Virus genome (UHGV): UHGV-1361184
Reading direction: 5' to 3' (one strand)
Source of the DNA: a virus
DNA: 39,532 nucleotides
Made by a program: the position numbers and the translations under genes. Under the pieces are notes generated by a model. It was not told the DNA's origin and searched no databases. It saw only the letters and a list, made by a program, of their open reading frames with translations. Of the stretch, positions 11,203 to 35,729 are shown one piece after another. How positions within the stretch are numbered: the first letter of the stretch is position 1; the number at the start of each line of letters is the position of its first letter.

Positions 11203-11662
11203 TCAACGTAAGGCGTTCCTCGATATGCTGGCGTGGTCAGAGGGAACTGATAACGGACGTCAGAAAACCAGAAATCATGGTTATGACGTCATTGTAGGCG
11301 GAGAGCTATTCACTGATTACTCCGATCACCCTCGCAAACTTGTCACGCTAAACCCCAAACTCAAATCAACAGCCGCCGGACGCTACCAGCTTCTTTCCCG
11401 TTGGTGGGATGCCTACCGCAAGCAGCTTGGCCTGAAAGACTTCTCTCCCAAAAGCCAGGACGCTGTGGCACTGCAGCAGATTAAGGAGCGTGGCGCTTTA
11501 CCGATGATTGATCGCGGTGATATTCGTCAGGCTATCGACCGTTGCAGCAATATCTGGGCTTCACTGCCGGGGGCTGGTTACGGTCAGTTCGAGCATAAGG
11601 CTGACAGCCTGATTGCAAAATTCAAAGAAGCAGGCGGAACGGTCAGAGAGATTGAGGCATGA
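11186..11662 (+). CDS. R: Endolysin R (lytic transglycosylase)
   Basis: 158 aa, [53 protein letters not shown]... matches lambda R. Confidence 0.95.
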
Positions 11663-12096
11663 ACAGAGTAACCGCGATTATCTCCGCTCTGGTTATCTGC
11701 ATCATCGTCTGCCTGTCATGGGCTGTTAATCATTACCGTGATAACGCCATCGCCTACAAAGAGCAGCGCGATCAAGCCACATCCACAATCGCTGATATGC
11801 AGAAGCGTCAACGTGACGTAGCAGAACTCGATGCCAGATATACAAAGGAGCTTGCTGATGCTAACGCGACTATCGAAAGTCTCCGTGCTGATGTTTCTGC
11901 TGGTCGTAAGCGCCTGCAAGTCGCCGCCACCTGTGCAAAGTCAACGACCGGAGCCAGCAGCATGGGCGATGGAGAAAGCCCAAGACTTACAGCAGATGCT
12001 GAACTCAATTATTACCGTCTCAGAAGTGGAATCGACAGGATAACCGCGCAGGTTAACTACCTGCAGGAATACATCAGGACGCAATGCCTTCGATGA
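11659..12096 (+). CDS. Rz: Spanin inner-membrane subunit Rz
   Basis: N-terminal TM segment [30 protein letters not shown] as in lambda Rz; start overlaps R stop. Confidence 0.9.
11858..12043 (+). CDS. Rz1: Spanin outer-membrane lipoprotein Rz1 (embedded in Rz, +1 frame)
   Basis: [20 protein letters not shown] lipobox followed by Pro-rich [13 protein letters not shown]; AAGGAG RBS 11845-11850. Confidence 0.8.
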
Positions 12097-12396: not shown

Positions 12397-12834
<438 letters not shown>

Positions 12835-12946
12835 GACGAACCGATTGATGCATTGAAAATTTTGCGTGTGAATTGATGTGTCTCATCAATTATTCTGGTG
12901 GATGAACTCATTATGATTTTTCACTCACCGGTATCGGAGCAAATCG

Positions 12947-13687
12947 ATGCATCAAACTTTAGCCAACGCAACGTTTCAGGTCATTGCAGGTGATTCTCGT
13001 GGTAGTGGGTTCAGCTTTATGCGAGAAGATCTGGTCGTAACCAATTTTCATGTTGTCGCCACCTGTTGTGACTTACAGAGCATGCGTCAAATCAATAATG
13101 TCACCCTTCAAACTGAAGCTAATGAGCATATTGGTGCTCAAATATTGCATGTTGATGGTAGTAACGACTTTGCTATCATGCAATTGCAATCCCCCCTTCC
13201 TGGCGGAAGAACAGTCCTTCAACCATCTGCTGGGTTTGCTCCATCCAGGGGCAGAAAAGTAATTTTTGCAGGATACCCGCATGGGATACCTCTGTTACTA
13301 ACAAGTGAGGCAATTATTTCAGCACCGATGGAGCATGGCCGATTTACGCTTGATGGAATGGTTAATGGGGGGAACTCAGGAGGACCTATTATTGATCGAG
13401 ATTCGGGAGAGTTAGTAGGTATCGTCACCCAGCGTAGATATATAATGGGCGATCAGGCTGATGCTTTCAGCCAAGAAATAGCCCAACTGCGACAATATCT
13501 TTCTTCAGCAAGTCTGCATGGAAGTGTTGAGATCATGGGTGTTAATTTCGGGCAAATGGCGGACATGTTTGGTAGATCGCTACAGATTGTTTCGGACATG
13601 ATGTCGCTGAATGCTAACTCCGGAATTGGTATTGGATTTTCAATCCAGCCCATCGTTGATGTGATCACATCTTTCCCTACGAAATAA
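12947..13687 (+). CDS. Cytoplasmic trypsin-like (S1/HtrA-type) serine protease with uncharacterised C-terminal region
   Basis: Catalytic-triad motifs in order: TNFHVV (His), DFAIMQL (Asp), GNSGGPI (Ser); no signal peptide; AT-rich. Confidence 0.75.
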   Translation: MHQTLANATFQVIAGDSRGSGFSFMREDLVVTNFHVVATCCDLQSMRQINNVTLQTEANEHIGAQILHVDGSNDFAIMQLQSPLPGGRTVLQPSAGFAPSRGRKVIFAGYPHGIPLLLTSEAIISAPMEHGRFTLDGMVNGGNSGGPIIDRDSGELVGIVTQRRYIMGDQADAFSQEIAQLRQYLSSASLHGSVEIMGVNFGQMADMFGRSLQIVSDMMSLNANSGIGIGFSIQPIVDVITSFPTK

Positions 13688-14128: not shown

Positions 14129-14617
14129 ATGGCAGCACCAAAGGGCAACCGATTTTGGGAGGCCCGCAGTAGTCATGGGCGAAACCCTAAATTCGAATCG
14201 CCTGAGGCGCTGTGGGCTGCTTGTTGTGAATACTTCGAGTGGGTGGAAGCTAACCCGCTATGGGAGATGAAGGCGTTCTCGTATCAGGGTGAAGTGATAC
14301 AAGAACCTATCGCCAAGATGCGAGCGATGACCATTACCGGCCTCACTCTGTTCATTGATGTGACGCTTGAAACATGGCGCACATATCGCCTGCGAGAAGA
14401 TTTATCTGAAGTCGTTACGCGAGCAGAGCAGGTCATCTACGACCAGAAATTCTCTGGCGCAGCCGCTGACCTTCTCAACGCTAACATCATCGCCCGTGAT
14501 TTGGGCCTCAAAGAGCAGTCGCAAGTTGAAGACGTGACACCTGATAAGGGAGATCGCGATAAGCGACGCTCTCGTATCAAGGAGCTATTCAACCGTGGAA
14601 CTGGACGCGATTCTTGA
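14129..14617 (+). CDS. 3: Terminase small subunit (P22 gp3-like)
   Basis: [53 protein letters not shown]... matches P22 gp3 as recalled (162 aa); contains pac-like sequence. Confidence 0.85.
14396..14417. other. Candidate pac site (P22-type) within gene 3
   Basis: GAAGATTTATCTGAAGTCGTTA matches my recollection of the P22 pac sequence. Confidence 0.45.
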
Positions 14618-16094
14618 TAACTTGAGCGACGAAGAGCAAATCGAGTTGCTCGAGCTACTCGAAGAAGAAGAGAACTACCGGAACACACACCTGCTATATG
14701 AATTTACGCCATACAGCAAACAGCGTGAGTTCATCGACGCCGGTCATGACTATCCAGAGCGCTGTTTTATGGCTGGTAACCAGCTTGGTAAGTCATTTAC
14801 TGGCGCTGCTGAAGTCGCGTTTCACCTTACCGGGCGTTATCCGGGCACAAAAGGCTATCCTGCTGATGGTAAATATGGCGGTGAGTGGAAAGGTAAGCGT
14901 TTCTATGAGCCTGTTGTCTTCTGGATTGGTGGCGAGACAAACGAGACGGTAACCAAAACGACTCAACGCATCCTGTGCGGTCGTATTGAAGAGAATGATG
15001 AGCCGGGCTACGGTTCAATACCGAAAGAGGACATCATTAGCTGGAAGAAGTCTCCTTTCTTTCCGAACCTTGTTGATCACCTTCTGGTTAAGCATCACAC
15101 GGCTGATGGCGTTGAAGATGGCATTTCAATCTGCTACTTCAAACCATACTCGCAAGGCCGCGCTCGCTGGCAGGGTGACACAATCCACGGCGTGTGGTTT
15201 GACGAAGAGCCACCATACAGCATTTATGGCGAAGGTCTTACCCGTACCAACAAATACGGGCAATTCTCAATTCTGACGTTTACCCCGCTGATGGGGATGT
15301 CTGACGTTGTTACCAAGTTCCTGAAGAATCCCAGCAAGTCGCAGAAAGTGGTCAACATGACCATCTATGACGCCGAGCACTACACAGACGAGCAGAAAGA
15401 GCAAATCATCGCATCCTATCCTGAGCATGAGAGAGAGGCGCGTGCTCGCGGTATTCCTACGATGGGTAGCGGGCGAATCTTCCAGATACCGGAAGAGACG
15501 ATTAAGTGTCAGCCGTTCGAGTGTCCTGATCACTTCTACGTAATTGGCGGGATGGATTTCGGATGGGATCACCCGCAGGCGCAGGTTCAGCTTTGGTGGG
15601 ATAAGGACGCAGACACAATCTACGTTTCACGCGTGTGGAAGGCGAAAGAAAAAACAGCGGTTCAGGCATGGGGAGCTGTTAAATCATGGGCGCATAAAGT
15701 GCCAACCGCATGGCCTCATGACGGAAACCAGCATGAGAAGGGCGGCGGTGAGCAGCTCAAAGGGCAGTATGCAGACGCTGGATTTATGATGTTGCAGGAG
15801 CATGCGACATGGCATGATGGCGGTAACGCTGTTGAGCCTGGCATCACTGAATTGCGAGACATGATGCTCGACGGTCGCTTCAAAGTATTCAACACCTGTG
15901 AGCCATTCTTTGAGGAGTTCCGCCTCTATCACCGTGATGAAAACGGGAAAATCGTCAAGCTTAACGACGACGTGCTATCCGCCGTTCGCTATGCATACAT
16001 GATGCGCCGCTTCGCAAAAATGATGCGCGACATCAAAAAACCAAAAGAGAAAAAGATACCAGCCCCAATCAGGCCCATCGCACGGAGAACTTAA
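14595..16094 (+). CDS. 2: Terminase large subunit (P22 gp2-like)
   Basis: 499 aa; N-terminal [46 protein letters not shown]; ATPase and nuclease regions. Confidence 0.9.
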
Positions 16095-18260
16095 ATGGCC
16101 GACGAAAACAGACTCAATTCCATTCTGTGTAAGTTTGACGCAGACTGGATGGCGAGCGATGAAGCCAGAACCGAGGCGACAAATGACCTGTATTTTAGCC
16201 GAGTGTCGCAATGGGATGACTGGCTATCAAACTACACGACCCTGCAATATCGCGGACAATTCGATGTTGTTCGCCCGGTGGTCAGGAAACTGGTCGCAGA
16301 GATGCGCCGTAACCCTATCGACGTTCTCTTCCGACCCAAAGACGGCGCTAATCCTGATGCAGCCGATGTGTTGATGGGGATGTATCGTACTGATATGCGC
16401 CATAACACGGCAAAAATTGCCGTTAACGTTGGCGTTCGTGAGCAGATAGAGTCCGGCGTTGGTGCATGGCGTCTGGTCACGCAGTACGAAGACAACGATC
16501 CAACAAGCAACAATCAGGTAATCCGACGCCTGCCAATCCATGAAGCCTGCTCACACGTCATATGGGACGCCAACAGCAAGCAGATGGATAAGAGCGATGC
16601 TAAGCACTGCACGGTGATTAACGCCTTGTCACGCAATGGCTGGAAAGAGTTCGCAGAGGATTACGGTATTGATCCGGATACCTTGCCATCTTTCCAGAAT
16701 CCGAACGATACATGGCTGTTCCCTTGGGTATCGAATGATGTCGTCTACGTCGCTGAGTATTACGAGGTCGAAGAGAAGAAAGAGAAGGTCTTCATCTACC
16801 GCGACCCGCTGACAGGTGAGCCGGTCAGCTATTACCAGCAAGATATCAAAGACGTCATCGACGACCTGGCTAATCGTGGATTCATTAAGGTAGCAGAGCG
16901 CAAGGTGAAGCGTCGGCGTGTGTATAAGTCGATCATCACCTGCACGCAGATACTGAAAGACCGAGAAAAGATAGCCGGAGAGCATATCCCAATCGTTCCT
17001 GTGTACGGCGAATGGTCATTCGCTGGTGACAAGGAGTGCTACGAAGGAGTGGTAAGGCTGACGAAAGACGGTCAGCGCCTTCGTAACATGATCATGTCGT
17101 TCAACGCCGATATTGTTGCTCGTTCACCGAAGAAGAAACCTACCTTCTTCCCTGAGCAAATCGAAGGCTACGAATACATGTACGGTGGAAATGATGACTA
17201 TCCGTACTATCTGCAGAACAGGACCGATGAAAACGGTAACGACCTGCCGATTGGTCCAATCTCCTACATGGAAAACCCTGAAGTGCCGCAAGCCAACGCT
17301 TATATGCTTGAGGCTGCCACCAACGCAGTGAAAGAGGTGGCTAGTCTTGGTGTGGATGCGCAGGCAGCAAACTCTCAGGTCGCTTTCGATACCGTCAATC
17401 AACTGAACATGCGGGCAGACCTTGAGACATACGTGTTTCAGGATAACCTGGCTACCGCAATGCGACGTGATGGCGAGATTTATGCCTCAATGGTCAACGA
17501 TATTTATGACGTTCCTCGTCATGTAACGCTGACACTTGAAGATGGAAGCGAGAAAGACGTTCAACTCTATGCGCAAGTTGTCGATTACCAGTCCGGCAAT
17601 GTGGTCACACTCAACGACATTCGCGGTCGCTATGAGTGCTATACAGACGTCGGACCATCCTTCCAGAGTATGAAGGAACAGAACCGTGCAGAGATTCAGG
17701 AGTTGCTCACCAAGGTTCCGCAAGGTACTCCAGAATTCCAGATGCTGATGCTGCAATACTTCACGCTGCTTGACGGTAAAGGCGTCGAGATGATGCGAGA
17801 GTACGCGAACAAGCAACTGGTGATGATGGGGCTGAAGAAACCAGAAACACCTGAAGAGATGGAGATGGTGCAGCAGGCACAACAACAGCCGCAGCAGCCA
17901 TCAGCAGAGCAAATTCAGGCGCAGGGTATCCTTCTGCAAGGTCAGGCTGAATTGCTCAAGGCAGAGAACCAACAGGCGCAGATTCAGGTTGAAGCCGCCA
18001 AGGTTGAAGCCCAAAACCAACTCAACGCCGCGAAGATTGCAGAAATCTTCAACAATATGGACCTCGACAAGCAGGCAGAACTGCGTGAGTACCTCAAGCT
18101 CGTAGGTCAATTCCAGCAACAGCGCAGCAAAGATGCTCGTGCTAACGCTGAGCTGCTTCTTAAAGATGCAGACCAGACTCATTCACAACGCATGGATTTC
18201 GCGAATCTTATGCGTCAAGTTCAAATCCCCTCCGGCGGAGTAGCCGAGACACCTCAATAA
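16095..18260 (+). CDS. 1: Portal protein (P22 gp1-like)
   Basis: 721 aa; long stretches match P22 portal as recalled ([35 protein letters not shown]-terminal Gln-rich barrel). Confidence 0.95.
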
Positions 18261-23821: not shown

Positions 23822-24517
23822 ATGTTATATGCATTTAAGCTGGGCAGAAAGCTGCGCGGCGAGGAACCTTATTGCCCTGAAAAAGGCGGCAAAGGTGGCA
23901 GTTCTGATAAAAGCGCAAAGTATGCCGCAGAAGCTCAGAAGTATGCAGCAGACCTGCAAAATCAGCAGTTCAACACCATCATGAACAACCTGAAGCCGTT
24001 TACTCCTCTGGCTGATAAGTATGTCGGCAGCCTCGAGAACTTATCGTCTCTGGAAGGGCAAGGTCAGGCACTTAACCAGTATTACAACTCTCAGCAGTAC
24101 AAAGATCTTGCAGGTCAGGCTCGCTATCAGAGTCTGGCGGCAGCAGAGGCAACGGGTGGATTAGGCTCTACAGCAACAGGAAACCAGTTAGCAACAATCG
24201 CACCAACGCTTGGTCAGCAATGGCTATCTGGTCAGATGAACAACTACCAGAATCTGGCAAATATTGGTCTTGGCGCACTGCAAGGTCAGGCAAACGCCGG
24301 GCAGACATATGCCAACAACATGAGTCAGATTTCGCAGCAAAGTGCGGCTCTTGCAGCGGCAAATGCCAACAGACCATCAGCAATGCAATCTGCTATTGGC
24401 GGAGGTGCGTCTGGTGCTATTGCTGGGGCTGGACTTGCGAAATCAATTGGTTCATCAACTCCGTGGGGTGCTGGTATCGGTGCTGGTATCGGTCTGCTTA
24501 GTTCACTGCTTTATTAA
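23822..24517 (+). CDS. 7: Ejection protein (P22 gp7-like)
   Basis: 231 aa, Gln/Ala/Gly-rich with C-terminal hydrophobic Gly-rich segment; synteny. Confidence 0.7.
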   Translation: MLYAFKLGRKLRGEEPYCPEKGGKGGSSDKSAKYAAEAQKYAADLQNQQFNTIMNNLKPFTPLADKYVGSLENLSSLEGQGQALNQYYNSQQYKDLAGQARYQSLAAAEATGGLGSTATGNQLATIAPTLGQQWLSGQMNNYQNLANIGLGALQGQANAGQTYANNMSQISQQSAALAAANANRPSAMQSAIGGGASGAIAGAGLAKSIGSSTPWGAGIGAGIGLLSSLLY

Positions 24518-24527: not shown

Positions 24528-25802
24528 ATGGCTACGTGGCAACAGGGTATTAATTCTGGTGGTTTTCTGGCTGGCATCGGTACGCAAAATGAGAATGCGC
24601 CAAAGGCAAGCGACATTAACGCAACGCTTGGTCTGATCCGCGAAAACAATGAACTGGCTCGCTCAGGTGCAAATAACGTTGGCCTGACCGCGTTACGTGG
24701 TCTGGCTGGAGTTGCTGATATTTACAATCAGGAACAGCAACAGAAAGCTATTAGTGCGTTCAATAAGGTTCACGCTGATGCATGGGCTTCTGGTGATCCA
24801 TCGGGACTATTTAAGTTTGCCCAGGAAAATCCAGCGTTTGTTGCACAGGCACAACAGGCGTTTTCCGGTCTTAATGATCAGCAACGCAACGATATGGGCG
24901 ATTTAGCCATGAGGGCTAACGTCGCTCTTTCTCAGGGACCGGAAGCCTACAGTAAATTCATTACTGATAACAAGGACAGGTTAAATCGCGTGGGGGCGAA
25001 TGCTGACTGGATGATTCAGACAGGTATTCAGAATCCAGAGCAGCTATCACACATGCTGACTACTATGTCTCTCGGTGCACTTGGGCCAGAAAAGGCGTTT
25101 GCTGTTCAGGACAAGATGGTTGGTCGCCAGCAGGAGCAGCAAAGAATTAACGAAACAATCCGTAATAATGACATGACAAATGCCAGAGGGTGGGCAAGCA
25201 ACAATATTGCGCAACAAAATGTCAATCTTCGTCGGATGGAATTAGAGGACAAGAAATACGACAGACTCATCGCAAATGAAACTAATGCCTTAAAACTTGC
25301 TGAATTGCAGGACAAGAGATTGCAGAATCAGCAAGCTATGGAGCAGGCAAAGCGAGATAAGGCCGATGCGTACAACTCTGGAATGGATAATCTCTCCAGA
25401 ACGATAGAGACGGCTACAAAAGTTCTTAATAGCCCAGGATTCACGGGATATTTCGGAACAAACCTAAACCCACTATCGAGTAGATTCATTCCAGGAACAG
25501 AGGCTGCTGATACAGAAACTCTGGTTGACACACTGAAATCTCAGGGATTCTTATCTGGCATTCAGCAGATGAAAGGGATGGGGGCTTTAAGTAATGCCGA
25601 GGGGCAAAAGGTAATGGATGCTATTGGTAGTTTGTCCCCAAATCAGTCTGAAAAATCAGCCAGAGCAGCTATCAAAACAATCATAAAAACCACTGAGATG
25701 GCTCAGAAACGTATGCAACAGAAATACGGGAAGGACATACAACCGTCTCAACAGCAGCTTTCTGATGATGACCTGATTAATAAATATCTCGGAGGGCAGT
25801 AA
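24528..25802 (+). CDS. Ejection protein (position of P22 gp20)
   Basis: 424 aa ORF in the E-protein cluster; synteny-based. Confidence 0.6.
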
Positions 25803-27913
25803 TGGCCTATAGTCGCGAACAGTTGATGACGGCGTTAAGGAATGCTGATGCTGCCGGCGATACTGAGGGAGCACGTCGCATTGCTCAGATGCTGTCTTCT
25901 GGTGATCAATCCACTCAAAACCAATCGCAGCCAGAAGAACAATCTCTGGTGGGAAAAGCCACTGACTGGCTCACTGGTGGTCAAAGTGCAGGGCAAATTG
26001 CAGAACAGGCTGGTCGTGGTCTGGTAAACATACCATTTGACGTATTGCAGGGTGGCGCAAGTCTGATTAATGCAATCAGCCAAGGGCTTGGTGGCCCCAA
26101 GGTTTTGGATGATGTTTATCGCCCTGTCGATCGACCGACAGACCCTTACGCGCAAGCCGGTGAAACAATTGGTGGGTATCTCCTGCCAATTGGCACAGCG
26201 GCAAAAGCTGCTGGAGCGCCAGCAAAGCTCGCTGGAGATATCGGTTCCGCAGGAAACATGATTGCAGGTTCACTTGCTGATGCTGCAAATCAGGAGGGCG
26301 ACTTTGCACAAAATGCTGCCATTAACGGTGGTATCAATATTGGTGCTCAAGGCGTTCTTTCAGGTGTCGGGCGCGTTATTGCTCCAAGGGTTTCACAGGC
26401 TATTGGTGGTGCAGCACTGAATTCTGCTAATGATGTTTCCAGGATGGCAAAGTCAGGTGCTGGGCGTCAGTCAATTGCCAGTCAGGCCGCTAATGTGTCC
26501 GAAGATGTAGCAAAAGCGGCTGAGTCTGCTGGAATTGATATAAACGCATTAACACCAGGAATGCGATCTGGAAGTCGTGGAATTGCACAAGCCGAAGGCG
26601 CATTGGCATCAACACCTGGAATTGTTCAGGACGCCCATCAGGCAGCATTTAACGAAATATCATCAAAGTTAAGTCGAAACCTTGATGAATTTGGGGCCGC
26701 ATCTGGAACGGCATCAGAAAAAAGTGCGGCTATAAAACAAAGGATTCTTCAAAATCTTGATCAGATGAAGGATGCCGAGCGCGCGGCATGGGATGACGTG
26801 CGGTCAACAATGCCAAATCAAAAAGCAAGAATGCTAAATGGTAATGCCGTTATTCAGGCAGAGCGATCTGCTGGCATACCGCTTACTCCTGAAATGAAAC
26901 AGTTTGTTCAGGCAAACAATCAAGGTGGAGTAACATTTGATGGCATGAAAGCATGGAGAGCGAAATTTGCTGATGCGGAGCAAAAATATAAGCGTAGCGG
27001 AGAGGCAAATGCGGCAAGGAGAGCAGGGGAAATACGCCGGGCAATTACTGATGATATGCGCACAATGGCGGAAAACGGCGGATTTCTTGATGACTGGCAG
27101 AAAGCTAATGATCTGTCTAAAGCGAGGTTATCAGCACAAGAGAGTGCAGAGTCTGTTTTCGGGCGTGATTTGGCAACAGATGCACTGATTACGAATGGAG
27201 TAAAATCCCTTCAATCATCGTCAGCTAAAGGTCTTAATGGTCCTGCTGGATTCCATTCTATGATCCGCGCGCTGCCAGAATCAGAGCGTGTTCCTGCTAT
27301 ATCATCAATGTTGCAAGATGCTATCTCGCATGGTGTACGTGGTGGCAAAGCTGATGCAGCAGGAATTAACCATATCGCAGAGATACTCACTCCACAAAAT
27401 GTAAAAGCCATTAGCCGATATTCCTCAGAGCTTGGAAGAATTGCAGATGCATATGGCACTCTTGCAAGAGCAGCAGTGAAACCTCAGCAGTATATTGAAA
27501 GAACAGGGCGAACTGCCAATGTACTACGCGATCTGGATGCTGGTTTATCCAACGTCACATCAACAGTGTTAAATGCAATTGCTAACTCAACATCAGGTGC
27601 CATTGTTGGTGGAGCAGGAGGGGGCATTGCAGGCGCTGCCGCAGGTGCTTTAGTTGGCGCTGGGTTAAAAGGCGCTGTATCTAAAATTGCCACCACACGT
27701 AGTGGTCGATATGCGATAGAGAAAGCTGTTCAGGAAGCCACCAAAGCAGTAAGAGCAGGCGGAAGCAAAGAAGCATTACTGGCGGCGGAACGCAGATTTA
27801 TGGCAAATAAGGCCGCCGTAAAAGCAATACGTGATACAGTCGGAAACGAAGAGTTTCAGCGCTTAGCGAGGGCTGGTATTGTGGCATCGCTAAGCGGAAT
27901 TGCACAGGAGTAA
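25802..27913 (+). CDS. Ejection protein (position of P22 gp16)
   Basis: 703 aa, Ala/Gly-rich with C-terminal [19 protein letters not shown] segment; synteny-based. Confidence 0.6.
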
Positions 27914-27996
27914 TTAGTCGTCCACGGATGGATTGATCTTATCTCGTGCTTCACATTTGGTTGTTTTGTCATTAGGATGTTTCCGGTTTTTTAAAT

Positions 27997-28428
27997 ATGG
28001 AAATTGATATGAAGAGGATTATTAGCGTCGTTGCTGGCGTTATCATGTTATCTGGGTGCGCAACTATTGTTGGTGATGAAACGCAACTTGTGCAAGTGAA
28101 CAGCAACCCTTCCGGTGCGAGCTTTAAGGTAAAAGATGAATCAGGCGTGATTGTTGCGCAAGGCAAGACTCCACAAGGAGTAACTCTTGCCAAGTCAGAT
28201 GGTAGTTATTTTGGCAAAAAGAGCTACCAGATCACTATGGAAAAGGATGGGTACGAACCAGTTACCCTGCCAATCAAAGCCAATGCTAATGGTTGGTATA
28301 TTGGTGGAAACCTTGTGTTTGGTGGGTTAATTGGTTGGCTTGCTGTAGATCCATTTAATGGTGGGATGTATACCTTGAAGCCAAAAGAGGCAAACGCATC
28401 TCTTATACCATCAACAAAGCAAGACTAA
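27997..28428 (+). CDS. Predicted lipoprotein in the sieA position
   Basis: Signal peptide with lipobox (MKRIISVVAGVIMLSGC; alternative ATG at 28009); C-terminal hydrophobic GGNLVFGGLIGWLAV; own terminator. Confidence 0.6.
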   Translation: MEIDMKRIISVVAGVIMLSGCATIVGDETQLVQVNSNPSGASFKVKDESGVIVAQGKTPQGVTLAKSDGSYFGKKSYQITMEKDGYEPVTLPIKANANGWYIGGNLVFGGLIGWLAVDPFNGGMYTLKPKEANASLIPSTKQD

Positions 28429-28437
28429 TAAATAGGA

Positions 28438-28459
28438 CCCACCTTCAGGTGGGTTTTTT
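28438..28459. terminator. Intrinsic terminator (hairpin overlaps the mnt stop)
   Basis: CCCACC-TTCA-GGTGGG followed by T6 on the plus strand and preceded by an A-run. Confidence 0.6.
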
Positions 28460-28696
28460 GTACAAATCCTTCAGCGTATCAAACACCATCTTCTTAACAA
28501 GCTCTGACTGCTCATCAGCAAGTCGTTCTGCATCGTCGCGATATCCAGTCACAGGCGATGGTTTTGATAGAGCATCTTGGACGATTTGTAACAACTCGGA
28601 GTTCATTGATCTCCCATTCGCCTCCGCCCTGAATTTTAATTTCTCCCTTACTTCCATAGGCATACGGAAGTTAAAGTGCGGATCATCTCTAGCCAT
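28445..28696 (-). CDS. mnt: Mnt repressor (P22 immI)
   Basis: MARDDPHFNFRMPMEVREKLKFRAEANGRSMNSELLQIVQDALSKPSPVTGYRDDAERLADEQSELVKKMVFDTLKDLYKKPT, near-identical to P22 Mnt as recalled. Confidence 0.9.
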   Translation of the reverse strand: MARDDPHFNFRMPMEVREKLKFRAEANGRSMNSELLQIVQDALSKPSPVTGYRDDAERLADEQSELVKKMVFDTLKDLYKKPT

Positions 28697-28770: not shown

Positions 28771-28786
28771 ATATTGTGAGGTGAAC

Positions 28787-28948
28787 ATGAAAGGAATGAG
28801 CAAAATGCCGCAGTTCAATTTGCGGTGGCCTAAAGAAGTATTGGATTTGGTCCGCAAGGTGGCGGAAGAGAATGGTCGGTCTGTTAACTCTGAGATTTAT
28901 CAGAGAGTAATGAAAAGCCTTAAGAAGGAAGGGCGCATTGGCGCGTAA
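28787..28948 (+). CDS. arc: Arc repressor (P22 immI)
   Basis: MKGMSKMPQFNLRWPKEVLDLVRKVAEENGRSVNSEIYQRVMKSLKKEGRIGA, 53 aa, matches P22 Arc with few substitutions. Confidence 0.9.
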   Translation: MKGMSKMPQFNLRWPKEVLDLVRKVAEENGRSVNSEIYQRVMKSLKKEGRIGA

Positions 28949-29017
28949 AGTTGAAGCCCCAACTGCTGGAACAGTCAGGGCTTCGGTATCGTAAAACCAC
29001 GCATAGGAATTAACGAC

Positions 29018-29941
29018 ATGAAAAGTATAGCAACAGCAGTATCTACTATCAACGTGCCATTCCACGGCGCAGAGCTTTATGTTGTCAATCACAACGGCGA
29101 GCCGTACACCCCAATGAAACCTATCGTTGAGGGAATGGGTATGGATTGGGCTTCACAGTTTACAAAGTTAAAACAAAGATTTGCTAAAGGTATTGTGGAA
29201 ATCGCAATACCTTCAGTTGGCGGCGTGCAGACCATGATTTGCCTTGCTTTACGTAAACTGAATGGCTGGTTGCAAACCATCAGCCCTAACAAAGTCCGCC
29301 CTGAAATCCGCGACAATGTAATCCAGTATCAGGAAGAGTGTGACGATGTGCTCTACGAGTACTGGACTAAAGGTCATGTGGTTAACCCACGCAAAGCTAA
29401 AAAGGCGTTGCCGGGTAAAATCACCACTGAACAGCAGGAAGCCATTAAACAACTCGTCATGAGTCGCGGTCAGTCTCTGCCAAAGGAAAAACAGGCTAAG
29501 GCGATGATCACCATGTGGTCGTCACTGAAATCCCATTTTGGATGTTCATACAAAGAAATCAGTGAGGAGCAGTTTACCGAAGCACTGTCACTTGCAGCTC
29601 GAGTTCCGCTTGAAGGTGAGTTCATTGGCAAACAAGAGAAGAAAACCAACGAGCTTTCTGCAAAAGAAGCAAACAGCCTTGTATGGTTATGGGATTATGC
29701 CAACCGTTCGCAGGCATTATTCCGCGAACTGTATCCGGCATTAAAACAAATTCAATCGAACTATTCCGGCAGATGCTACGACTACGGTCATGAATTCTCG
29801 TATGTTATCGGAATGGCGAGAGACGTTTTAATCAATCACACACGAGATGTTGATATCAATGAGCCAGACGGACCAACGAATCTTTCCGCATGGATGAGAC
29901 TTAAGAATAAAGAATTACCTCCTTCAGTACATAACTACTGA
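29018..29941 (+). CDS. ant: Antirepressor Ant (P22 immI)
   Basis: 307 aa directly downstream of mnt-arc; N-terminus [23 protein letters not shown]... Confidence 0.8.
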
Positions 29942-30119: not shown

Positions 30120-31556
30120 ATGACAGACATTACAGCCAATGTGATCGTATCGATGCCTTCGCAACTCTTTACTATGGCCCGCTCTTTTAAAGCCGTAGCT
30201 AATGGCAAAATTTATATCGGTAAAATTGACACTGACCCAGTAAATCCAGAAAACCAGATTCAGGTTTATGTGGAGAACGAAGACGGCTCTCACGTTCCTG
30301 TTTCTCAACCAATCATCATTAACGCAGCTGGTTACCCCGTATACAACGGACAGATTGCCAAGTTTGTAACTGTGCAAGGCCATTCTATGGCTGTTTATGA
30401 TGCTTACGGCGTTCAGCAGTTTTATTACAAGAACGTGTTAAAGTATGATCCTGACCAGTTACGGCAAGTATTTATTGGCCCTGATGGAAAGGGTCTAGAT
30501 AACTTCTTTGGCGGCGGCGGCTGGACCGTGGCAAACGCTTCAACGGAGAACATCTATAATACCGCTGACGACACCAACAATAACGCACTACGCTGGCGCT
30601 ATGATGTGCCATCGACAGATAATCAACTCCCGATCGCCTATCTCAAGAAAACAATCACAACTACCAGGGATCCGGCTGCAGGAGGAAAGCCAGGCCGGTG
30701 GGATGAAGGCACTATTTACTCTCATGTAAAAAAACTTGGCGGCTCGGCATATGCGGCTGGTATAACCAGCATGTTTGACGCCACTGATGGAACAGGAGAT
30801 AGCGTTTCAATACACGCAAGGGCAAACGGTCGTCGTCCTCACGTTGTCGGCGGACAAGAGGGGTCGGGGGTCTGGGGATTGTGGTCGTTTGCTGTCGCTA
30901 CCCCGTCAGACGGGACATGGATTAAGCAGATGTTGGGGCTGGAGATTGACTGCATCAACAACGGACAGGCAATTCCATTCCCTGTGCCAACTGGTCAAGG
31001 TGCATATATCGGAGCACAGATAACCGCAGTTAATGGCATTTGCTCACATGGTCTTGAGATTGGCGCTGGTTCTGGCGCGTCATGGCACCGCGGTATTTTC
31101 ATCAGACAAGGCGCTATAACCCCATCAAATACATTCGCTGGCACAAGTTGCATTGAACTTGAAGGTGGTGTTTTTAATAAACGTGTTGGTGGGCTTAATT
31201 TCGGGAAAGGTTATTTTGACTACGGCATTAATTTTGCCAAGCCATCAGAAGATTACGCAAGCCTTGCTGCAATCATCATGGGTGAGGGAAACAGGATTTA
31301 CATGGGGGATTCTGTTTCATCGGCAAATTACATCGCAAAGGTAGCCGGTCAGTCCGTCTTAAACTTCCAGAACTTATCTATCGCCATTAACGGAACTAAA
31401 GTAATAGGCCCGAGAGTGACTGGGATCTTTGCACTCACTGGCACTGCTGACGGAGCAACGAAAAACACTGAAACAATGACACTCCAGGAATTAGCAAGGT
31501 ATGTTAAAAAGGGTTTTGATGCCCTTATCGGTCATGGCTTATTTAGCCCAACATAA
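30120..31556 (+). CDS. Tailspike: P22-like N-terminal head-binding domain fused to a short divergent receptor-binding domain
   Basis: N-terminal ~115 aa ([11 protein letters not shown]...[30 protein letters not shown]...[14 protein letters not shown]...VLKYDPDQ) matches P22 gp9; remainder (478 aa total) unlike P22. Confidence 0.8.
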
Positions 31557-32012: not shown

Positions 32013-33140
32013 TTACTGGAAATAGGACTCGTTTTTCTTTCTGTTAAGCTTAGAGCCAGTTCCTTTATGCCCGGCAGTAACGTGAAACTCCCATTCGTTA
32101 TTCTGCAGTGCGCTTTTTGTTAATCCGTAGAACCTTACTAAGAAACCACATTCAAGATTGTAATCTGGAAATCTAGCGACAACATCTGAGCGCTGAATTT
32201 TTCCTTCCAGGAATCCAGGAACAATCTCCTGACCTATGCGAAGATTGAAAAACTCCTGAGCTACACTCTCAGTTGGAACACACCAACCCGTGAACACACA
32301 TGACCCATCGTCTTCTCTTATGCGGTCCACATACCCATGCCATGTTATTTTTATTTCATCATGGTCAATGGTTAAATCCTGATTTAGATTAAGACCAATA
32401 TATTTAAGATATTCGTAAACATCTTCCATAACAAAGAACTTAAATGGGCTGGCAGCTTTAGAGGAGGCATGCATATCGTAATATTCAGTTTGTGTCATCA
32501 AGAATTTTTTGACCAGGTGATGACCGGCGCCCTTGAATGCTTTTAGTGCTTCAATATCATTGACGTCAACAAGGCCCTCTAACTTATTGCGCGCGCTTGC
32601 GATGTAGTCATCATAGTTCTTATGATGGAAGTGTAGGTAAATAATATCTGTATCAGTCTGCAGTCCTGATTCCACCTCTCCGCGATGAAACCCATTCCCT
32701 AGGGCAGTAATTCTTGATTTAGGGGAAAACACTTTTTCAGGCTTATGGCTCAATGCGAACTCTTTGGCATTGAGTGGATGGTTGCCATATGTGTATTTAA
32801 TTTTAAGGGTTGAGTCTATATCTTTGTATTTTAGTAATTCATCCCTCACATCATCACTTGAGAGAGAAACCTTACCCTTTGAAAACTCAACCCCAACAAA
32901 TTCGTCGCAATCAAGTGGAAGCATGAAATCATAATCATGGACACGCTTTAATTCTTCGTATTTATCTACGAAATAGATATGCCTTGTATTGAAATCGTCA
33001 AAAGTGTTTCTGTCATAAATAACATGCAACCCCTTTTGGCTATATTTTTCCAGAACGTCAGTACACCTCTGGTCGGCAGAGCCGTTATCGTAGACGTATA
33101 AATTTTCCAGGCCAAAAAGCTCAGCAGATGCAGTATCCAT
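32013..33140 (-). CDS. Putative GT-A-fold glycosyltransferase; apparent frameshift at the 5' end (N-terminal segment in the 33193..33138 frame)
   Basis: ENLYVYDNGSADQ (DxGS.D-type) and FMLPLDCDEF (DxD-like) motifs; AT-rich; MKVAVLMMQKDEYRLLEPW with AAGGA RBS lies just upstream in another frame. Confidence 0.55.
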   Translation of the reverse strand: MDTASAELFGLENLYVYDNGSADQRCTDVLEKYSQKGLHVIYDRNTFDDFNTRHIYFVDKYEELKRVHDYDFMLPLDCDEFVGVEFSKGKVSLSSDDVRDELLKYKDIDSTLKIKYTYGNHPLNAKEFALSHKPEKVFSPKSRITALGNGFHRGEVESGLQTDTDIIYLHFHHKNYDDYIASARNKLEGLVDVNDIEALKAFKGAGHHLVKKFLMTQTEYYDMHASSKAASPFKFFVMEDVYEYLKYIGLNLNQDLTIDHDEIKITWHGYVDRIREDDGSCVFTGWCVPTESVAQEFFNLRIGQEIVPGFLEGKIQRSDVVARFPDYNLECGFLVRFYGLTKSALQNNEWEFHVTAGHKGTGSKLNRKKNESYFQ

Positions 33141-33360: not shown

Positions 33361-33609
33361 GTGCAGATCATGCCCCGCAGTCACGACATTCACGCCTCAT
33401 TTGTGGCCGCAATACAGCTAAACCCCAAGGGCTACAGGTGCTTACGCACAGAAGACTTTATCCGCGAGCTGGCAAAGGTCCACTGGCATTTCAGCCGGGC
33501 CGACGCCAACGAGTGGATAGAGCGCTATCAGCCCGACTTCACCGACAAGACAACTGACGGAACCGACAATCACTACTGGATCCTGCGCAACATGGGGAGG
33601 GTTCACTGA
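33361..33609 (+). CDS. Hypothetical 82-aa protein, translationally coupled to the downstream UmuD-like gene
   Basis: Stop overlaps the next start (TGATG); gene size and position reminiscent of impC. Confidence 0.45.
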   Translation: MQIMPRSHDIHASFVAAIQLNPKGYRCLRTEDFIRELAKVHWHFSRADANEWIERYQPDFTDKTTDGTDNHYWILRNMGRVH

Positions 33610-33959
33610 TGGGCTTTCCTTCACCGGCGGGAGACTACGTAGAGCAGCGGTTAACACCGGAGCGTATCTGCGGGATCGGCATGCACAGCCGCATCCTCGA
33701 AACATCATCCGGCTTTGCCGTTATCGAACCGTGCACCAGGCTGGTACAGAATCAGGTTCTGCTGATTTTATCTGGCGGCAGAACGCAGTTTGCCAGGGTA
33801 ATGGGTAGGGCATTAATCACTGATGATGGTGAAGCGATCGAAGGGGAGGAGGCGGAGGAAGTTGAGGTGCTGGGGCGCGTGACGTTCTTCATCAACAGCG
33901 CGCTACAGGATGACAGGGTGGGTGATGGGTGGCATTACGCCACCTTTTCATCAAGCTAG
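33609..33959 (+). CDS. UmuD/ImpA-like (peptidase S24 fold) protein, apparently lacking the catalytic Ser/Lys motifs
   Basis: N-terminal GFPSPAGDYVEQRL is the hallmark UmuD/MucA/ImpA motif; no SGDSM or VKK motif found downstream. Confidence 0.5.
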   Translation: MGFPSPAGDYVEQRLTPERICGIGMHSRILETSSGFAVIEPCTRLVQNQVLLILSGGRTQFARVMGRALITDDGEAIEGEEAEEVEVLGRVTFFINSALQDDRVGDGWHYATFSSS

Positions 33960-34550: not shown

Positions 34551-35729
34551 ATGGCTATAAGCGACACAAAACTGCGTACTATTTATGGTAAACCATATTC
34601 GGGCCCACAAGAAGTGGCTGATGCCGATGGCCTCAGCGTACGAATTTCACCGAAGGGGGTCATCCAGTTCCAGTACCGCTATCGCTGGCATGGCAAGCCT
34701 AATCGACTTGGGCTTGGTCGATACCCATCCCTGTCTTTGAAGGATGCCAGACAGATCACTGCTGACTTGCGAAAGCTCTATTTCTCAGGAACGGATCCAC
34801 GCACTTATTTTGAAGAGAAGGTGGAGAACTCCATGACGGTCGCCCAGTGTCTCGACTACTGGTTCGACAACTACGTCTCTACAACTCTCAGAGAAAAGAC
34901 CCAGGCACTTTACCGATCAACGGTTATGAAGCGCATGCATGACGCCTTCCCTAATCGTCCGGCATCTTCTATCACGGTTAAGCAATGGGTTGACCTGCTT
35001 ACCGAAGAAGAAAAAGATAATCCACGCCGAGCAAGACAGGTGCTAAGTCAACTAAGATCAGCAATTAGTTGGTGCATGCGGCGCCAGTTGATAGATAGTT
35101 GCGCAATTATGAGCATCCAGCCAAGGGACTTCGGCTCCCGCGCTGAGGTAGGGGATCGGGTACTGTCGTATCACGAACTGGCTAAGATTTGGCTTGCTAT
35201 TGAAAGAAGCCGTGCGTCTACGTCAAATAAGCTCCTTCATCAGATGCTTATGCTGTGGGGGGCGAGGCTCTCAGAGCTTAGGCTGGCAACAAAGACAGAA
35301 TTTGACCTGCTGGACAACGTATGGACCGTACCGAAAGAGCATAGCAAGATGGGTAATGTTATCCGCCGTCCAATCTTCGAACAAATTAAGCCTTTTCTCG
35401 AAAAGGCCATGACAACGTACAATGATGTTCTTTTCCCTGGAGAAGACATAAACAAACCGATCAGCATCGCTGCAGCCAACCGATTCGTAAACAGAATAAG
35501 GGGAGGGATGGATCTAGGTTACTGGCGAACACATGATTTCAGAAGAACGCTTGTTACACGTCTGTCTGAGATGAATGTCGAGCCTCATGTCACTGAGCGA
35601 ATGCTCGGTCATGAACTTGGCGGGATAATGTCCGTGTACAATAAACACGACTGGATAGAGGCTCAGCGTAAAGCGTATGAGCTTCACGCTGATAAATTGT
35701 TCTGGCACATCAGGAGCATTTCTGATTAA
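34551..35729 (+). CDS. int: Tyrosine integrase (P4-type, DUF4102-like N-terminal arm-binding domain)
   Basis: 392 aa; N-terminal GLSVRISPKGVIQFQYRYRWHGK...LGRYPSLSLKDAR; C-terminal catalytic region HDFRRT...LGHELGGIMSVYNKH. Confidence 0.9.
   Translation: MAISDTKLRTIYGKPYSGPQEVADADGLSVRISPKGVIQFQYRYRWHGKPNRLGLGRYPSLSLKDARQITADLRKLYFSGTDPRTYFEEKVENSMTVAQCLDYWFDNYVSTTLREKTQALYRSTVMKRMHDAFPNRPASSITVKQWVDLLTEEEKDNPRRARQVLSQLRSAISWCMRRQLIDSCAIMSIQPRDFGSRAEVGDRVLSYHELAKIWLAIERSRASTSNKLLHQMLMLWGARLSELRLATKTEFDLLDNVWTVPKEHSKMGNVIRRPIFEQIKPFLEKAMTTYNDVLFPGEDINKPISIAAANRFVNRIRGGMDLGYWRTHDFRRTLVTRLSEMNVEPHVTERMLGHELGGIMSVYNKHDWIEAQRKAYELHADKLFWHIRSISD

What the first reader, a model, noticed from the sequence alone, without database searches (positions are those of the whole stretch)
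27997..28459. Lipoprotein gene in the position where P22 carries sieA
Between the last ejection-protein gene and mnt, P22 has the superinfection-exclusion gene sieA. Here there is a 143-aa predicted lipoprotein (lipobox LSGC, C-terminal Gly-rich hydrophobic segment) with its own terminator. Phage lipoproteins at such loci (Cor, Llp, Bor) often block receptors or DNA entry. Function is not assignable from sequence.
Basis: partly seen in the sequence, partly recalled or inferred. Interest (0 to 1): 0.5.

Follow-up and report, generated by a model that had tools for sequence, protein, structure and literature searches.

The report
Prophage-expressed outer-membrane lipoprotein moron
A small self-contained gene in a P22-like phage, lying where P22 keeps its superinfection-exclusion gene, encodes a very conserved lipoprotein of unknown function, predicted to sit in the outer membrane, that a nearly identical prophage copy transcribes on its own (strongly inside macrophages), so it most likely changes the host cell envelope rather than building virus particles.

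Summary
A real lipoprotein gene lies between the last ejection-protein gene and mnt. Its true start is 28009 (139 aa, not 143). It has an invariant lipobox Cys with Ala at +2, its own promoter-like element and its own terminator.

The protein is identical to Salmonella phage epsilon34 gp15 ("conserved hypothetical", 2008; phrog_6823, unknown function). It belongs to a large uncurated family of 5,280 cluster representatives across Gamma-, Beta- and Zetaproteobacteria. The predicted structure is a transthyretin/PEGA-like beta-sandwich carrying a near-invariant Gly-rich hydrophobic insertion. It shows no homology to SieA, Cor, Bor, SlyB or any PADLOC defence model.

Phage-borne copies are under strong purifying selection (dN/dS 0-0.1). 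They recur in P22-like prophages and in lambdoid prophages at the HK97 gp15 slot (tail chaperone/tape measure) or next to gpJ.

Published RNA-seq of the 96.5%-identical Gally/LF82 copy shows autonomous prophage transcription. It is low in LB overnight culture and 15-60-fold higher in DMEM and in macrophages, while the neighbouring injection genes stay silent.

Best reading: a lysogenic-conversion moron that gives the host an envelope lipoprotein. Superinfection exclusion remains a live, untested rival. Interest is moderate.

The parts
27950..27978 (+). Promoter-like element: -35 TTCACA, 17-nt spacer, -10 TAGGAT
   Evidence: The consensus scan scores it 9 of 12, which is weak on its own. In 78 P22-like loci the conserved block begins exactly at CTTCAC, whatever lies upstream, and the hexamers and spacing are kept even in the divergent Gally-type upstream region. 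The Gally homologue is transcribed independently of the adjacent late genes.
27997..28008 (+).
   Evidence: This ATG is ACG in Gally-type alleles. The PHROG profile and the epsilon34, Gally and 720R6 annotations all start at the MKR codon, 28009.
28009..28428 (+). CDS, 139 aa prolipoprotein (stop TAA at 28426-28428); identical to epsilon34 gp15
   Evidence: Supported (100% identity to EU570103 gene 15; phrog_6823, E = 2e-86; dN/dS 0-0.1 among 51 DNA alleles).
28009..28059 (+). Signal peptide (aa 1-16) with lipobox L14-S15-G16-C17 (nt 28048-28059); Ala at +2
   Evidence: Read directly from the sequence. Cys17 is invariant and Ala18 near-invariant. 81 of 94 unique family proteins pass a PS51257-like regular expression, and all 94 have Ala at +2.
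28081..28287 (+). Beta-sandwich core (aa 25-93), transthyretin/PEGA/CnaB-like
28288..28368 (+). Gly-rich hydrophobic insertion (aa 94-120), NGWYIGGNLVFGGLIGWLAVDPFNGGM; the family signature
   Evidence: It is the most conserved segment. In 150 distant representatives, G109, D114, P115 and M120 are at 100%, Y97 and N101 at 99%, and W96, G100, G105, G106 and G118 at 92-97%. AF2 predicts two short helices at low confidence (pLDDT 50-64).
28369..28401 (+). Two C-terminal strands (aa 121-131) that return to the sandwich
   Evidence: AF2 places strands at 121-124 and 127-131 with block pLDDT of about 89.
28435..28460 (.). Intrinsic terminator hairpin GGACCCACC-UUCA-GGUGGGUUU plus U-run, shared with convergent mnt
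   Evidence: The RNA fold is -14.5 kcal/mol with z = -2.6. The terminator scan finds it. It is annotated as rho-independent in epsilon34. The mnt ORF ends at 28445, inside the hairpin.

Best explanation
This is a moron: a self-contained promoter-gene-terminator unit inserted in the variable region between the ejection-protein genes and the immI region of a P22-like phage. It is expressed from the prophage independently of the late operon.

The product is a prolipoprotein. [quoted passage not shown] Its transthyretin/PEGA-like beta-sandwich would face the periplasm. A near-invariant Gly-rich hydrophobic insertion would dip into the outer membrane or contact outer-membrane proteins.

I think the phage copy keeps the ancestral activity of a chromosomal envelope-lipoprotein family that E. 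coli and Salmonella lack in their core genomes. On this reading it acts as a lysogenic-conversion factor that alters or stabilises the outer membrane of the lysogen, especially under host-like conditions. Its role would resemble Bor or SlyB/YfgH, though it is not related to them. Any phage exclusion would follow from that envelope change.

What is shown: gene reality, lipobox conservation, moron boundaries, autonomous and condition-dependent transcription of a 96.5%-identical copy, purifying selection, and family distribution. What is inferred: acylation, outer-membrane localisation, the role of the hairpin, and the phenotype.
For: Moron architecture:
- The conserved block starts at the -35-like hexamer in 78 loci with three different upstream contexts.
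- The gene has its own terminator.
- In a lambda-like prophage the gene sits between two terminator-like hairpins, between gpI and gpJ.

Autonomous expression (PMC9928086, S1 Table; LF82_139 coordinates match). Values are log2(fpkm+5):
- LF82_139: 6.2/4.8 in LB overnight, 9.8-10.5 in DMEM, 11.0 in macrophages at 1 h, 9.4-9.5 at 6 h.
- Adjacent injection-protein gene LF82_137: 3.6-4.1 throughout.
- Only the c2 repressor is higher.

Lipoprotein: invariant Cys, Ala at +2 in all 94 unique proteins.

Ancestral, constrained function:
- 5,280 cluster representatives at E <= 1e-3.
- 50-60% identity reaching Halomonadaceae, Nitrosomonas, Gallionellaceae and Mariprofundus.
- A syntenic chromosomal locus (mmuM / X / speG) in 10-15 Erwiniaceae species, and next to murJ in six Photorhabdus.
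- dN/dS 0-0.1 with dS up to 0.25 among phage-borne alleles.
- The phage copy keeps every family-invariant residue.

Absent from the E. coli core: only 126 of 5,426 complete genomes carry it, all on the chromosome.

Carried by phages with different adsorption machines: P22-like phages and three J-protein types.

Hints of an outer-membrane link:
- One subfamily is fused to an OmpA-like transmembrane barrel.
- In three Pasteurellaceae species an 8-stranded OMP gene ends 9-16 nt upstream on the same strand.

Not a lysis or virion gene: the window has its own holin, endolysin, Rz and embedded Rz1.
Against: - No experiment links any family member to a phenotype.
- No solved structure or curated family is informative.
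- The hairpin is modelled with low confidence. Its invariant Asn and Asp could equally mark a ligand site.
- The family has no detectable homology to SlyB (hhalign probability 0.6%).
- Counted by independent lineages, OMP neighbours are not clearly above chance.
- The gene occupies two slots where experimentally proven exclusion genes sit: P22 sieA and HK97 gp15. It was never found together with sieA type A or type B.
- HK97 gp15 also has non-phage chromosomal homologues, the YebO family. Chromosomal relatives therefore do not exclude an exclusion role.
- The DMEM and macrophage induction was compared with LB overnight cultures, so it may partly reflect growth phase.
Confidence: 0.45

Rival explanations
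1. Dedicated superinfection exclusion. The outer-membrane lipoprotein masks an outer-membrane receptor from the periplasmic side, as Cor and Llp do with FhuA or TraT with OmpA. Alternatively, it obstructs assembly of the trans-envelope DNA conduit (gp7/gp20/gp16, or the tape measure and tail tip) at the outer-membrane or periplasm stage.
For: - It lies in the gene 16-mnt interval where P22 has sieA.
- In E. coli ED1a-type and Proteus prophages it lies between the tail chaperone and tape-measure genes, the slot of the HK97 gp15 exclusion moron.
- In Pseudescherichia it lies directly upstream of gpJ.
- None of 78 P22-like loci carrying it has sieA type A or B, whereas 22 of 66 P22-like phages carry sieA.
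- It is expressed from the prophage.
- The OmpA-like fusion and the OMP operon hint at binding to small outer-membrane barrels.
Against: - No homology to SieA, Cor, Bor or any PADLOC model.
- Extreme conservation and purifying selection rather than arms-race divergence.
- Syntenic chromosomal copies in free-living bacteria.
- Carried by phages with four unrelated adsorption devices, so it is not a blocker specific to its own phage's receptor.
- Only about 3-fold above background in LB overnight culture.
Confidence: 0.3
2. Lytic-cycle accessory. The gene is co-oriented with the late operon and has no terminator between itself and gene 16, so it would be made late in infection. It could then protect progeny from adsorbing to cell debris, or modulate the envelope before lysis.
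For: - It is on the same strand as the late operon, 95 nt downstream of the gene 16 stop codon, with no terminator found in between.
- From my own knowledge: P22 late transcription reads through this region to reach gene 9.
- From my own knowledge: T5 Llp is a precedent for such a role.
Against: - In LF82 it is transcribed while the late genes are silent.
- Most relatives have a reverse-strand gene between gene 16 and this gene.
- Chromosomal homologues exist outside phages.
- The lysis cassette is complete without it.
- Most P22-like phages lack it: only 4 of 50,697 phage records carry it.
Confidence: 0.07
3. Inner-membrane retention. The Gly-rich hydrophobic segment acts as a stop-transfer or membrane anchor, so the protein works at the inner membrane like SieA or HK97 gp15.
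For: - There is an 18-19-residue hydrophobic stretch (aa 96-113).
- BLASTP finds a faint local resemblance to a SieA transmembrane stretch (E = 0.04 for a single comparison).
Against: - My hand calculation of mean Kyte-Doolittle hydropathy gives about 1.1 over 19 residues. The stretch contains six Gly and an invariant Asn, which is below usual transmembrane thresholds.
- It is followed by confidently modelled strands that rejoin the sandwich.
- Ala at +2 in all members predicts Lol export.
- The SieA motif FxRYPxEAxxFNK is absent.
Confidence: 0.05
4. Passenger gene with no benefit to phage or host under normal conditions, hitch-hiking in a recombination hot spot.
For: - The gene 16-gene 9 interval is a known mosaic hot spot, the 'ant moron' region.
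- At least five unrelated genes alternate beside it.
Against: - dN/dS is 0-0.1 over 51 alleles.
- It has been captured into at least four phage contexts.
- The exact protein is seen on 1,000 or more contigs.
- Transcription is high and regulated.
Confidence: 0.08

Closest known systems
Salmonella phage epsilon34 gene 15 product (ACF16641.1); phrog_6823
   Same: The protein is 100% identical over 139 aa. It has the same neighbours (gene 13 ejection protein upstream, mnt downstream) and the same terminator.
   Different: epsilon34 has an extra reverse-strand gene 14 (hkcB-like) between the ejection gene and this gene. The window has a clean junction there. The function was recorded as unknown in 2008 and is still unknown in PHROGs.
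P22 SieA (superinfection exclusion, types A and B)
   Same: It occupies the same interval between gene 16 and mnt/gene 9. It is expressed from the prophage. It is an envelope protein. It alternates with this gene and was never found together with it.
   Different: SieA is a multi-pass inner-membrane protein encoded on the opposite strand, with the motif FxRYPxEAxxFNK. There is no sequence similarity. SieA is restricted to P22-like prophages, whereas this family is widespread in chromosomes.
HK97 gp15 moron (YebO-derived exclusion protein)
   Same: Family members in E. coli and Proteus lambdoid prophages sit in the same slot between the tail assembly chaperone and tape-measure genes. Both have non-phage bacterial homologues.
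   Different: gp15 is a small inner-membrane protein that has diverged from YebO at its C-terminus. This protein is a lipoprotein with a beta-sandwich, and it keeps all family-invariant residues.
Cor (phi80/N15/HK022) and Llp (T5) exclusion lipoproteins
   Same: They are phage-encoded lipoproteins expressed to act at the outer membrane.
   Different: Matches cover only the signal peptide and lipobox. For NCBIfam lamb_exclu_cor the score is 13 bits against a cut-off of 31. For phrog_1119 the match covers aa 5-24 only. Cor is 78 aa and FhuA-specific, and the fold and family are different.
Lambda Bor/Iss and F-plasmid TraT
   Same: They are outer-membrane lipoproteins encoded by mobile elements that change host envelope phenotypes such as serum resistance and surface exclusion. 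Bor is also induced in DMEM in LF82.
   Different: No Pfam hit to Lambda_Bor or TraT appears at E <= 1. Nothing is known about the phenotype here.
SlyB / YfgH glycine-zipper outer-membrane lipoproteins
   Same: They have an N-terminal lipid anchor and a Gly-rich hydrophobic helical hairpin. They are stress-induced and have roles in stabilising the outer membrane.
Pfam PEGA (PF08308) and transthyretin-like / carboxypeptidase-regulatory-like beta-sandwiches
   Different: The PEGA score is below the gathering cut-off (17.5 against 20.8 bits). The signature C-terminal insertion is not part of PEGA.

Membership tests
Bacterial lipoprotein (Lgt/LspA/Lnt substrates; PROSITE PS51257-type signal) | N-terminal signal peptide with K/R in the first 7 residues and an uncharged hydrophobic core | tested here: met
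   MKRIISVVAGVIMLSGC has K2 and R3, and no D/E/R/K between residues 4 and 16.
Bacterial lipoprotein (Lgt/LspA/Lnt substrates; PROSITE PS51257-type signal) | Lipobox [LVI..][ASTG..][GAS]-C with the Cys at position 15-35, conserved in homologues | tested here: met
   LSGC with Cys17. The Cys is invariant in 40 sequences and present in 99% of 150 representatives. 81 of 94 unique proteins pass the regular expression.
Bacterial lipoprotein (Lgt/LspA/Lnt substrates; PROSITE PS51257-type signal) | Actual diacylglyceryl modification, signal peptidase II cleavage and outer-membrane sorting | not testable with these tools
   Only the sequence rule could be checked. Ala (not Asp) is at +2 in all 94 unique proteins, which predicts Lol export to the outer membrane.
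Moron (Juhala/Hendrix sense) | Own promoter | tested here: inconclusive
   The consensus match is only 9 of 12. However, the conserved block begins at this element in 78 loci, and the 96.5%-identical LF82 copy is transcribed while the flanking late genes are silent.
Moron (Juhala/Hendrix sense) | Own terminator | tested here: met
   A hairpin plus U-run lies at 28435-28460. It is annotated in epsilon34.
Moron (Juhala/Hendrix sense) | Present or absent between otherwise collinear relatives; not needed for lytic growth | tested here: met
   Only 4 of 50,697 phage records carry it. P22 has sieA and orf59a in its place. Whether it is needed for lytic growth was not tested.
Moron (Juhala/Hendrix sense) | Base composition different from neighbours | tested here: inconclusive
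   GC is 0.41-0.45 against 0.44-0.54 in gene 16, a small difference.
SieA (phrog_7745) | Multi-pass inner-membrane protein with the FxRYPxEAxxFNK motif and sequence similarity to types A, B or C | tested here: not met
   BLASTP against P22 SieA gives only 6 of 31 identities (E = 0.04). The PHROG scan does not hit phrog_7745. tblastn with type A and type B SieA finds nothing in the window.
Cor exclusion lipoprotein (NF047972, phrog_1119) | Full-length match above the curated cut-off | tested here: not met
   The NCBIfam score is 13 bits against a cut-off of 31, covering aa 5-33 only. The PHROG match covers aa 5-24 only.
Lambda Bor/Iss (Pfam Lambda_Bor) | Pfam or PHROG match | tested here: not met
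   The Pfam scan at E <= 1 lists only PEGA. There is no Bor PHROG among the hits.
Known anti-phage defence systems (PADLOC-DB 2.0) | Match to any model | tested here: not met
   0 families at E <= 1.
PEGA domain (PF08308) | Score above the gathering threshold | tested here: inconclusive
   17.5 bits against 20.8, E = 0.004, aa 32-97. The predicted fold is consistent with this class.
Glycine-zipper 2TM outer-membrane lipoproteins (SlyB/YfgH) | Glycine-zipper 2TM domain detectable by profile; repeated GxxxG | tested here: not met
   There is no Pfam hit. hhalign against E. coli SlyB gives probability 0.6%. The segment has only one GxxxG (G105-G109).
o-spanin (Rz1) | Short Pro-rich lipoprotein encoded within or next to Rz in the lysis cassette | tested here: not met
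   The window already has Rz (11659..12096) with an embedded Rz1-like ORF (11831..12043, lipobox VSAC, Pro-rich). This gene is 16 kb away and has a different architecture.

The most novel reading that the evidence does not exclude
The family could be a new, widely disseminated class of phage-borne exclusion factor. It would act from the periplasmic face of the outer membrane, possibly by binding small OmpA-like barrels or by obstructing the trans-envelope DNA conduit. On this reading it would be the functional replacement for SieA in the two-thirds of P22-like phages that lack sieA, and for gp15 in HK97-like prophages. Being switched on in host-like conditions and in macrophages, it could also contribute to the intracellular fitness of adherent-invasive E. 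coli (AIEC).
Probability: 0.3. Interest if true: 0.7.

Novelty: new variant of a known kind. Interest (0 to 1): 0.45.

Why it matters
About two-thirds of P22-like phages have no sieA, and what they carry in its place has not been studied.

This gene is one of the commonest occupants of that region. The exact protein is seen on at least 1,000 contigs, and it is present in 2.3% of complete E. coli genomes.

It belongs to a family of several thousand sequence clusters that no database has curated and for which no phenotype is known.

The same family sits in two classic exclusion-moron slots of unrelated phage types. [quoted passage not shown] The published analysis concluded that Gally carries no moron.

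A simple expression and deletion experiment would therefore give one of two results. It could reveal a new envelope-level anti-phage mechanism. Or it could define the function of a conserved proteobacterial outer-membrane lipoprotein that phages pass between hosts.

Tried and rejected
**Homology-based annotation**
- Pfam gave only a sub-threshold PEGA hit.
- NCBIfam gave only weak partial hits: LEPBI_I2678 on the C-terminal motif, and Cor on the signal peptide.
- PADLOC gave nothing.
- A PDB sequence search gave nothing significant.

**Candidate relationships tested and rejected**
- SlyB homology.
- SieA homology.
- A spanin role.
- The JGI name 'YceK'. No family scan supports it, and I think it comes from the signal peptide alone (my inference).

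**Search for a conserved chromosomal operon partner**
- I clustered all neighbours in 176 loci and found no partner shared across lineages.
- Lineage-specific neighbours are unrelated enzymes and regulators: mmuM, speG, Tsx, murJ, GGDEF-EAL and WYL. Some are other small lipoproteins, DUF2846 in one case.
- OM-barrel neighbours looked enriched by raw counts. They collapse to about five independent lineages, which is near chance. Only the tight Pasteurellaceae operon and the rare fusion remain as leads.

**Long family members.** C-terminal extensions are mostly low-complexity Pro/Ala tails with no domains.

**Literature**
- I found no paper on the function of epsilon34 gp15.
- A CRISPRi gut-fitness preprint on LF82 does not mention this gene in its text or in its held supplement.
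- S4 Table of PMC9928086 was truncated in the held copy, so the q-value for LF82_139 could not be read.

**RNA families.** The Rfam scan found no RNA element in the gene itself, only sar RNA further downstream.
Full report
**1. The observation**

The window is a complete P22-like (Lederbergvirus-type) genome. The region of interest reads as follows:

| Feature | Coordinates |
|---|---|
| gp7-like ejection protein | 23822-24517 |
| gp20-like ejection protein | 24528-25802 |
| gp16-like ejection protein | 25802-27913 |
| ORF under study | see below |
| mnt | 28445-28696, minus strand |
| arc | 28784-28948 |
| sar RNA | 28949-29016, minus strand |
| ant | 29018-29941 |
| tailspike | 30120-31556 |

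The ORF 27997-28428 exists as described. Its start should be moved to 28009. The ATG at 27997 is ACG in Gally-type alleles. The PHROG profile and every deposited annotation begin at MKRII.

The 139-aa product begins MKRIISVVAGVIMLSGC. That gives a basic n-region, an uncharged h-region, the lipobox LSGC and Cys17. A hairpin with a U-run at 28435-28460 follows the stop codon (-14.5 kcal/mol, z = -2.6). The stop codon of mnt lies inside this hairpin, so the terminator serves both convergent genes.

P22 itself has sieA and orf59a in this interval, both on the minus strand.

**2. It is a real, selected gene, and one already on record**

The protein is 100% identical to epsilon34 gp15 and about 96% identical to hypothetical proteins of E. 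coli phages Gally and vB_EcoP-720R6. Only 4 of 50,697 phage records hold it. [quoted passage not shown]

The gene is much commoner in prophages than in sequenced phage isolates:
- 111 IMG/VR loci encode a relative, 74 of them 96-100% identical.
- The exact protein sits on at least 1,000 contigs under the name 'hypothetical protein'.
- 126 of 5,426 complete E. coli genomes carry it, always on the chromosome.

Among 78 P22-like loci there are 51 DNA alleles but only 20 protein variants. dS reaches 0.25, dN stays at or below 0.0125, and dN/dS is 0-0.1.

**3. Anatomy of the protein and its family**

A 40-sequence alignment (54-97% identity) has 29 invariant columns, including Cys17.

An exhaustive profile search finds 5,280 cluster representatives at E <= 1e-3 and 1,979 at E <= 1e-10. 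In the best 150 of these:
- Cys17 is at 99% and Ala18 at 95%.
- The C-terminal signature G-W-Y-x-x-G-N-x-x-F-G-G-L-I-G-W-L-x-V-D-P-x-x-G-x-M-[WY] is nearly fixed. G109, D114, P115 and M120 are at 100%; Y97 and N101 are at 99%.

All 94 unique mature proteins taken from the fetched loci have Ala at +2. By the Lol +2 rule (established knowledge) this predicts outer-membrane sorting.

AlphaFold2 gives a confident beta-sandwich over aa 25-93, plus strands at 121-131. The Gly-rich insertion is modelled as two short helices at low confidence. Overall mean pLDDT is 77.

Three candidate relationships failed direct testing:
- Cor matches only the signal peptide.
- SieA shows no similarity.
- SlyB gives hhalign probability 0.6%.

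**4. It is a moron unit and is expressed from the prophage**

I aligned the upstream DNA of 78 P22-like loci. The conserved block begins exactly at CTTCAC, the -35-like hexamer (TTCACA, 17 nt, TAGGAT, at 27950-27978). This holds whether gene 16 (9 loci, including the window) or one of several reverse-strand genes (69 loci) lies upstream.

In a lambda-like Pseudescherichia prophage the gene sits between gpI and gpJ and is bracketed by terminator-like hairpins.

The strongest evidence is published RNA-seq of AIEC LF82, whose Gally prophage carries a 96.5%-identical copy. That copy is LF82_139 = GALLYPH_14, and its coordinates 1033474-1033893 are confirmed. The values below are from S1 Table of PMC9928086, as log2(fpkm+5), two replicates where given.

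| Gene | LB overnight | DMEM | Macrophages 1 h | Macrophages 6 h |
|---|---|---|---|---|
| LF82_139 | 6.2 / 4.8 | 9.8-10.5 | 11.0 / 11.0 | 9.4 / 9.5 |
| LF82_137 (adjacent injection protein) | 3.6-4.1 in every condition | | | |

Only the c2 repressor is higher. The authors applied a 5-fold cut-off to the LB data only and concluded that Gally has no moron. In LB the gene is about 3.3-fold above background.

Because the comparison is with stationary LB cultures, part of the induction may reflect growth phase rather than a host signal.

**5. Where the family lives**

Close relatives (69-80% identity) are mostly on prophages:
- E. coli ED1a-type and Proteus lambdoid prophages, between the tail assembly chaperone (gpG/T) and the tape-measure gene. 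This is the slot of the HK97 gene 15 moron, a proven exclusion gene.
- Pseudescherichia and Phytobacter prophages, between gpI and gpJ.
- An Actinobacillus contig, between a Q-like antiterminator and an antirepressor.
- A Rosenbergiella island with an integrase fragment.

More distant members (50-70% identity) are stand-alone chromosomal genes:
- Between mmuM and speG in 10-15 Erwiniaceae species.
- Near murJ in six Photorhabdus.
- In Enterobacter, Lonsdalea, Halomonadaceae, Pasteurellaceae, Nitrosomonas, Gallionellaceae and Mariprofundus.

No partner gene is shared across lineages. Two specific leads remain:
- In three Pasteurellaceae species an 8-stranded OMP_b-brl gene ends 9-16 nt upstream on the same strand.
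- One metagenomic subfamily (three members) fuses the domain to an OmpA-like transmembrane barrel.

Counted by independent lineages, other OM-barrel neighbours are not above chance.

**6. Interpretation**

Shown:
- The gene is real and under strong constraint.
- The lipoprotein signal is conserved across the family.
- The gene forms a mobile promoter-gene-terminator unit.
- A near-identical copy is transcribed autonomously and in a condition-dependent way from a prophage.
- A chromosomal family has been captured repeatedly by temperate phages that use different adsorption machines.

Inferred:
- The protein is acylated and located in the outer membrane.
- The Gly-rich insertion engages the membrane or an outer-membrane protein.
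- The phenotype.

I favour (0.45) a lysogenic-conversion factor that supplies E. coli and Salmonella with an envelope lipoprotein missing from their core genomes, one that modifies or stabilises the outer membrane. Three things support this:
- The phage copies keep every family-invariant residue.
- They evolve under purifying selection rather than diversifying selection.
- Their chromosomal relatives sit at syntenic, non-island loci.

The main rival (0.30) is dedicated superinfection exclusion. Its support is positional:
- The family occupies both the sieA interval and the HK97 gp15 slot.
- It never co-occurs with sieA type A or type B in 78 loci.
- HK97 gp15 shows that a chromosomal ancestry does not preclude an exclusion role.

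The two readings are not mutually exclusive. A lipoprotein that masks or reorganises outer-membrane proteins could do both. From my own knowledge, F-plasmid TraT, reported to interact with OmpA, is a precedent.

I consider three further roles unlikely, though none is formally excluded: a lysis or spanin role, an inner-membrane SieA-like role, and neutral passenger status. They are scored among the rivals at 0.05-0.08 each.

**7. Verdict**

The gene is already on record as epsilon34 gp15, a hypothetical protein, but neither it nor its large family has an assigned function.

It is a non-homologous variant of a known kind, the phage-moron outer-membrane lipoprotein. Interest is moderate (0.45). 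It would rise substantially if simple plating and envelope assays reveal a phenotype.

Noticed in passing
Literature: PMC9928086 S1 Table, LF82 1032854-1033893 (homologous to window ~27914-28428): LF82_138 (a reverse-strand lipoprotein, phrog_6067) and LF82_139 (the homologue of this finding) are the most highly transcribed Gally genes after c2 in DMEM and in macrophages. The paper nonetheless concludes that Gally carries no moron, because its 5-fold cut-off was applied only to LB overnight data.
   Followed up: partly
L001-L003 and L020-L093, between the gene 16 homologue and the lipoprotein gene (the window has a clean junction at ~27914-27949): In 69 of 78 P22-like loci a second, reverse-strand gene fills the exact sieA slot. 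Five unrelated small envelope proteins alternate there, all of unknown function: phrog_2651 (secreted), phrog_6067 (lipoprotein), phrog_5962 (hkcB-like, one TM helix plus coiled coil), phrog_8100 and phrog_21338.
   Followed up: partly
window 32013-33140 (-): A 375-aa reverse-strand ORF lies between the tailspike gene and the UmuD-like and integrase genes. It has no PHROG match and only a borderline Pfam glycosyltransferase-2 hit (27.3 against 27.5 bits). It may be an O-antigen-modifying conversion gene, sitting where P22 has gtrABC.
   Followed up: partly
window 30120-31556 (+): The tailspike is only 478 aa. Only its N-terminal head-binding domain (aa 1-113/150) matches Pfam or PHROG families, so the receptor-binding part is not covered by known families.
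   Followed up: no
window 33609-33959 (+): A UmuD-like protein (phrog_3469) is encoded just upstream of the integrase gene (34551-35729).
   Followed up: no
L130 7887-7954 (Spirabiliibacterium pneumoniae, Pasteurellaceae): An 11-nt tandem repeat, ATTCCGCATGG x 6.2 (96% matches), ends about 40 nt upstream of the chromosomal family member. It could be a regulatory or phase-variable array.
   Followed up: partly
L004-L007 (E. coli ED1a-type lambdoid prophage), genes at ~12261-13424 and 14376-16388: The same prophage that carries the family gene between gpT and the tape-measure gene also has a porin gene between gpM and gpL. A ClpP-like, Arc and Bro-N/antirepressor module is inserted among its tail genes.
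   Followed up: no
L128, L129, L146 (Pasteurellaceae), 7397-7991: An 8-stranded OMP_b-brl gene is tightly coupled (9-16 nt gap) upstream of the family gene. In addition, a metagenomic subfamily (P0144, 365 aa) fuses the family domain to an OmpA-like transmembrane barrel.
   Followed up: partly
window 28435-28456 / 28445-28447: The mnt stop codon lies inside the terminator hairpin of the lipoprotein gene, so one hairpin appears to terminate both convergent transcripts. Rfam's weak sroH match here (16.7 bits, E = 0.54) covers only the 3' end of the model (positions 139-161 of 161) and coincides with this hairpin.
   Followed up: yes
L184 35463-36101 (-) (E. coli HS prophage HS1): The reverse-strand 212-aa 'hypothetical protein' after gene 16 is the type B SieA of the literature. 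It is 28% identical to P22 SieA and carries the motif NRYPGEARKFNK. RefSeq still labels it hypothetical.
   Followed up: yes
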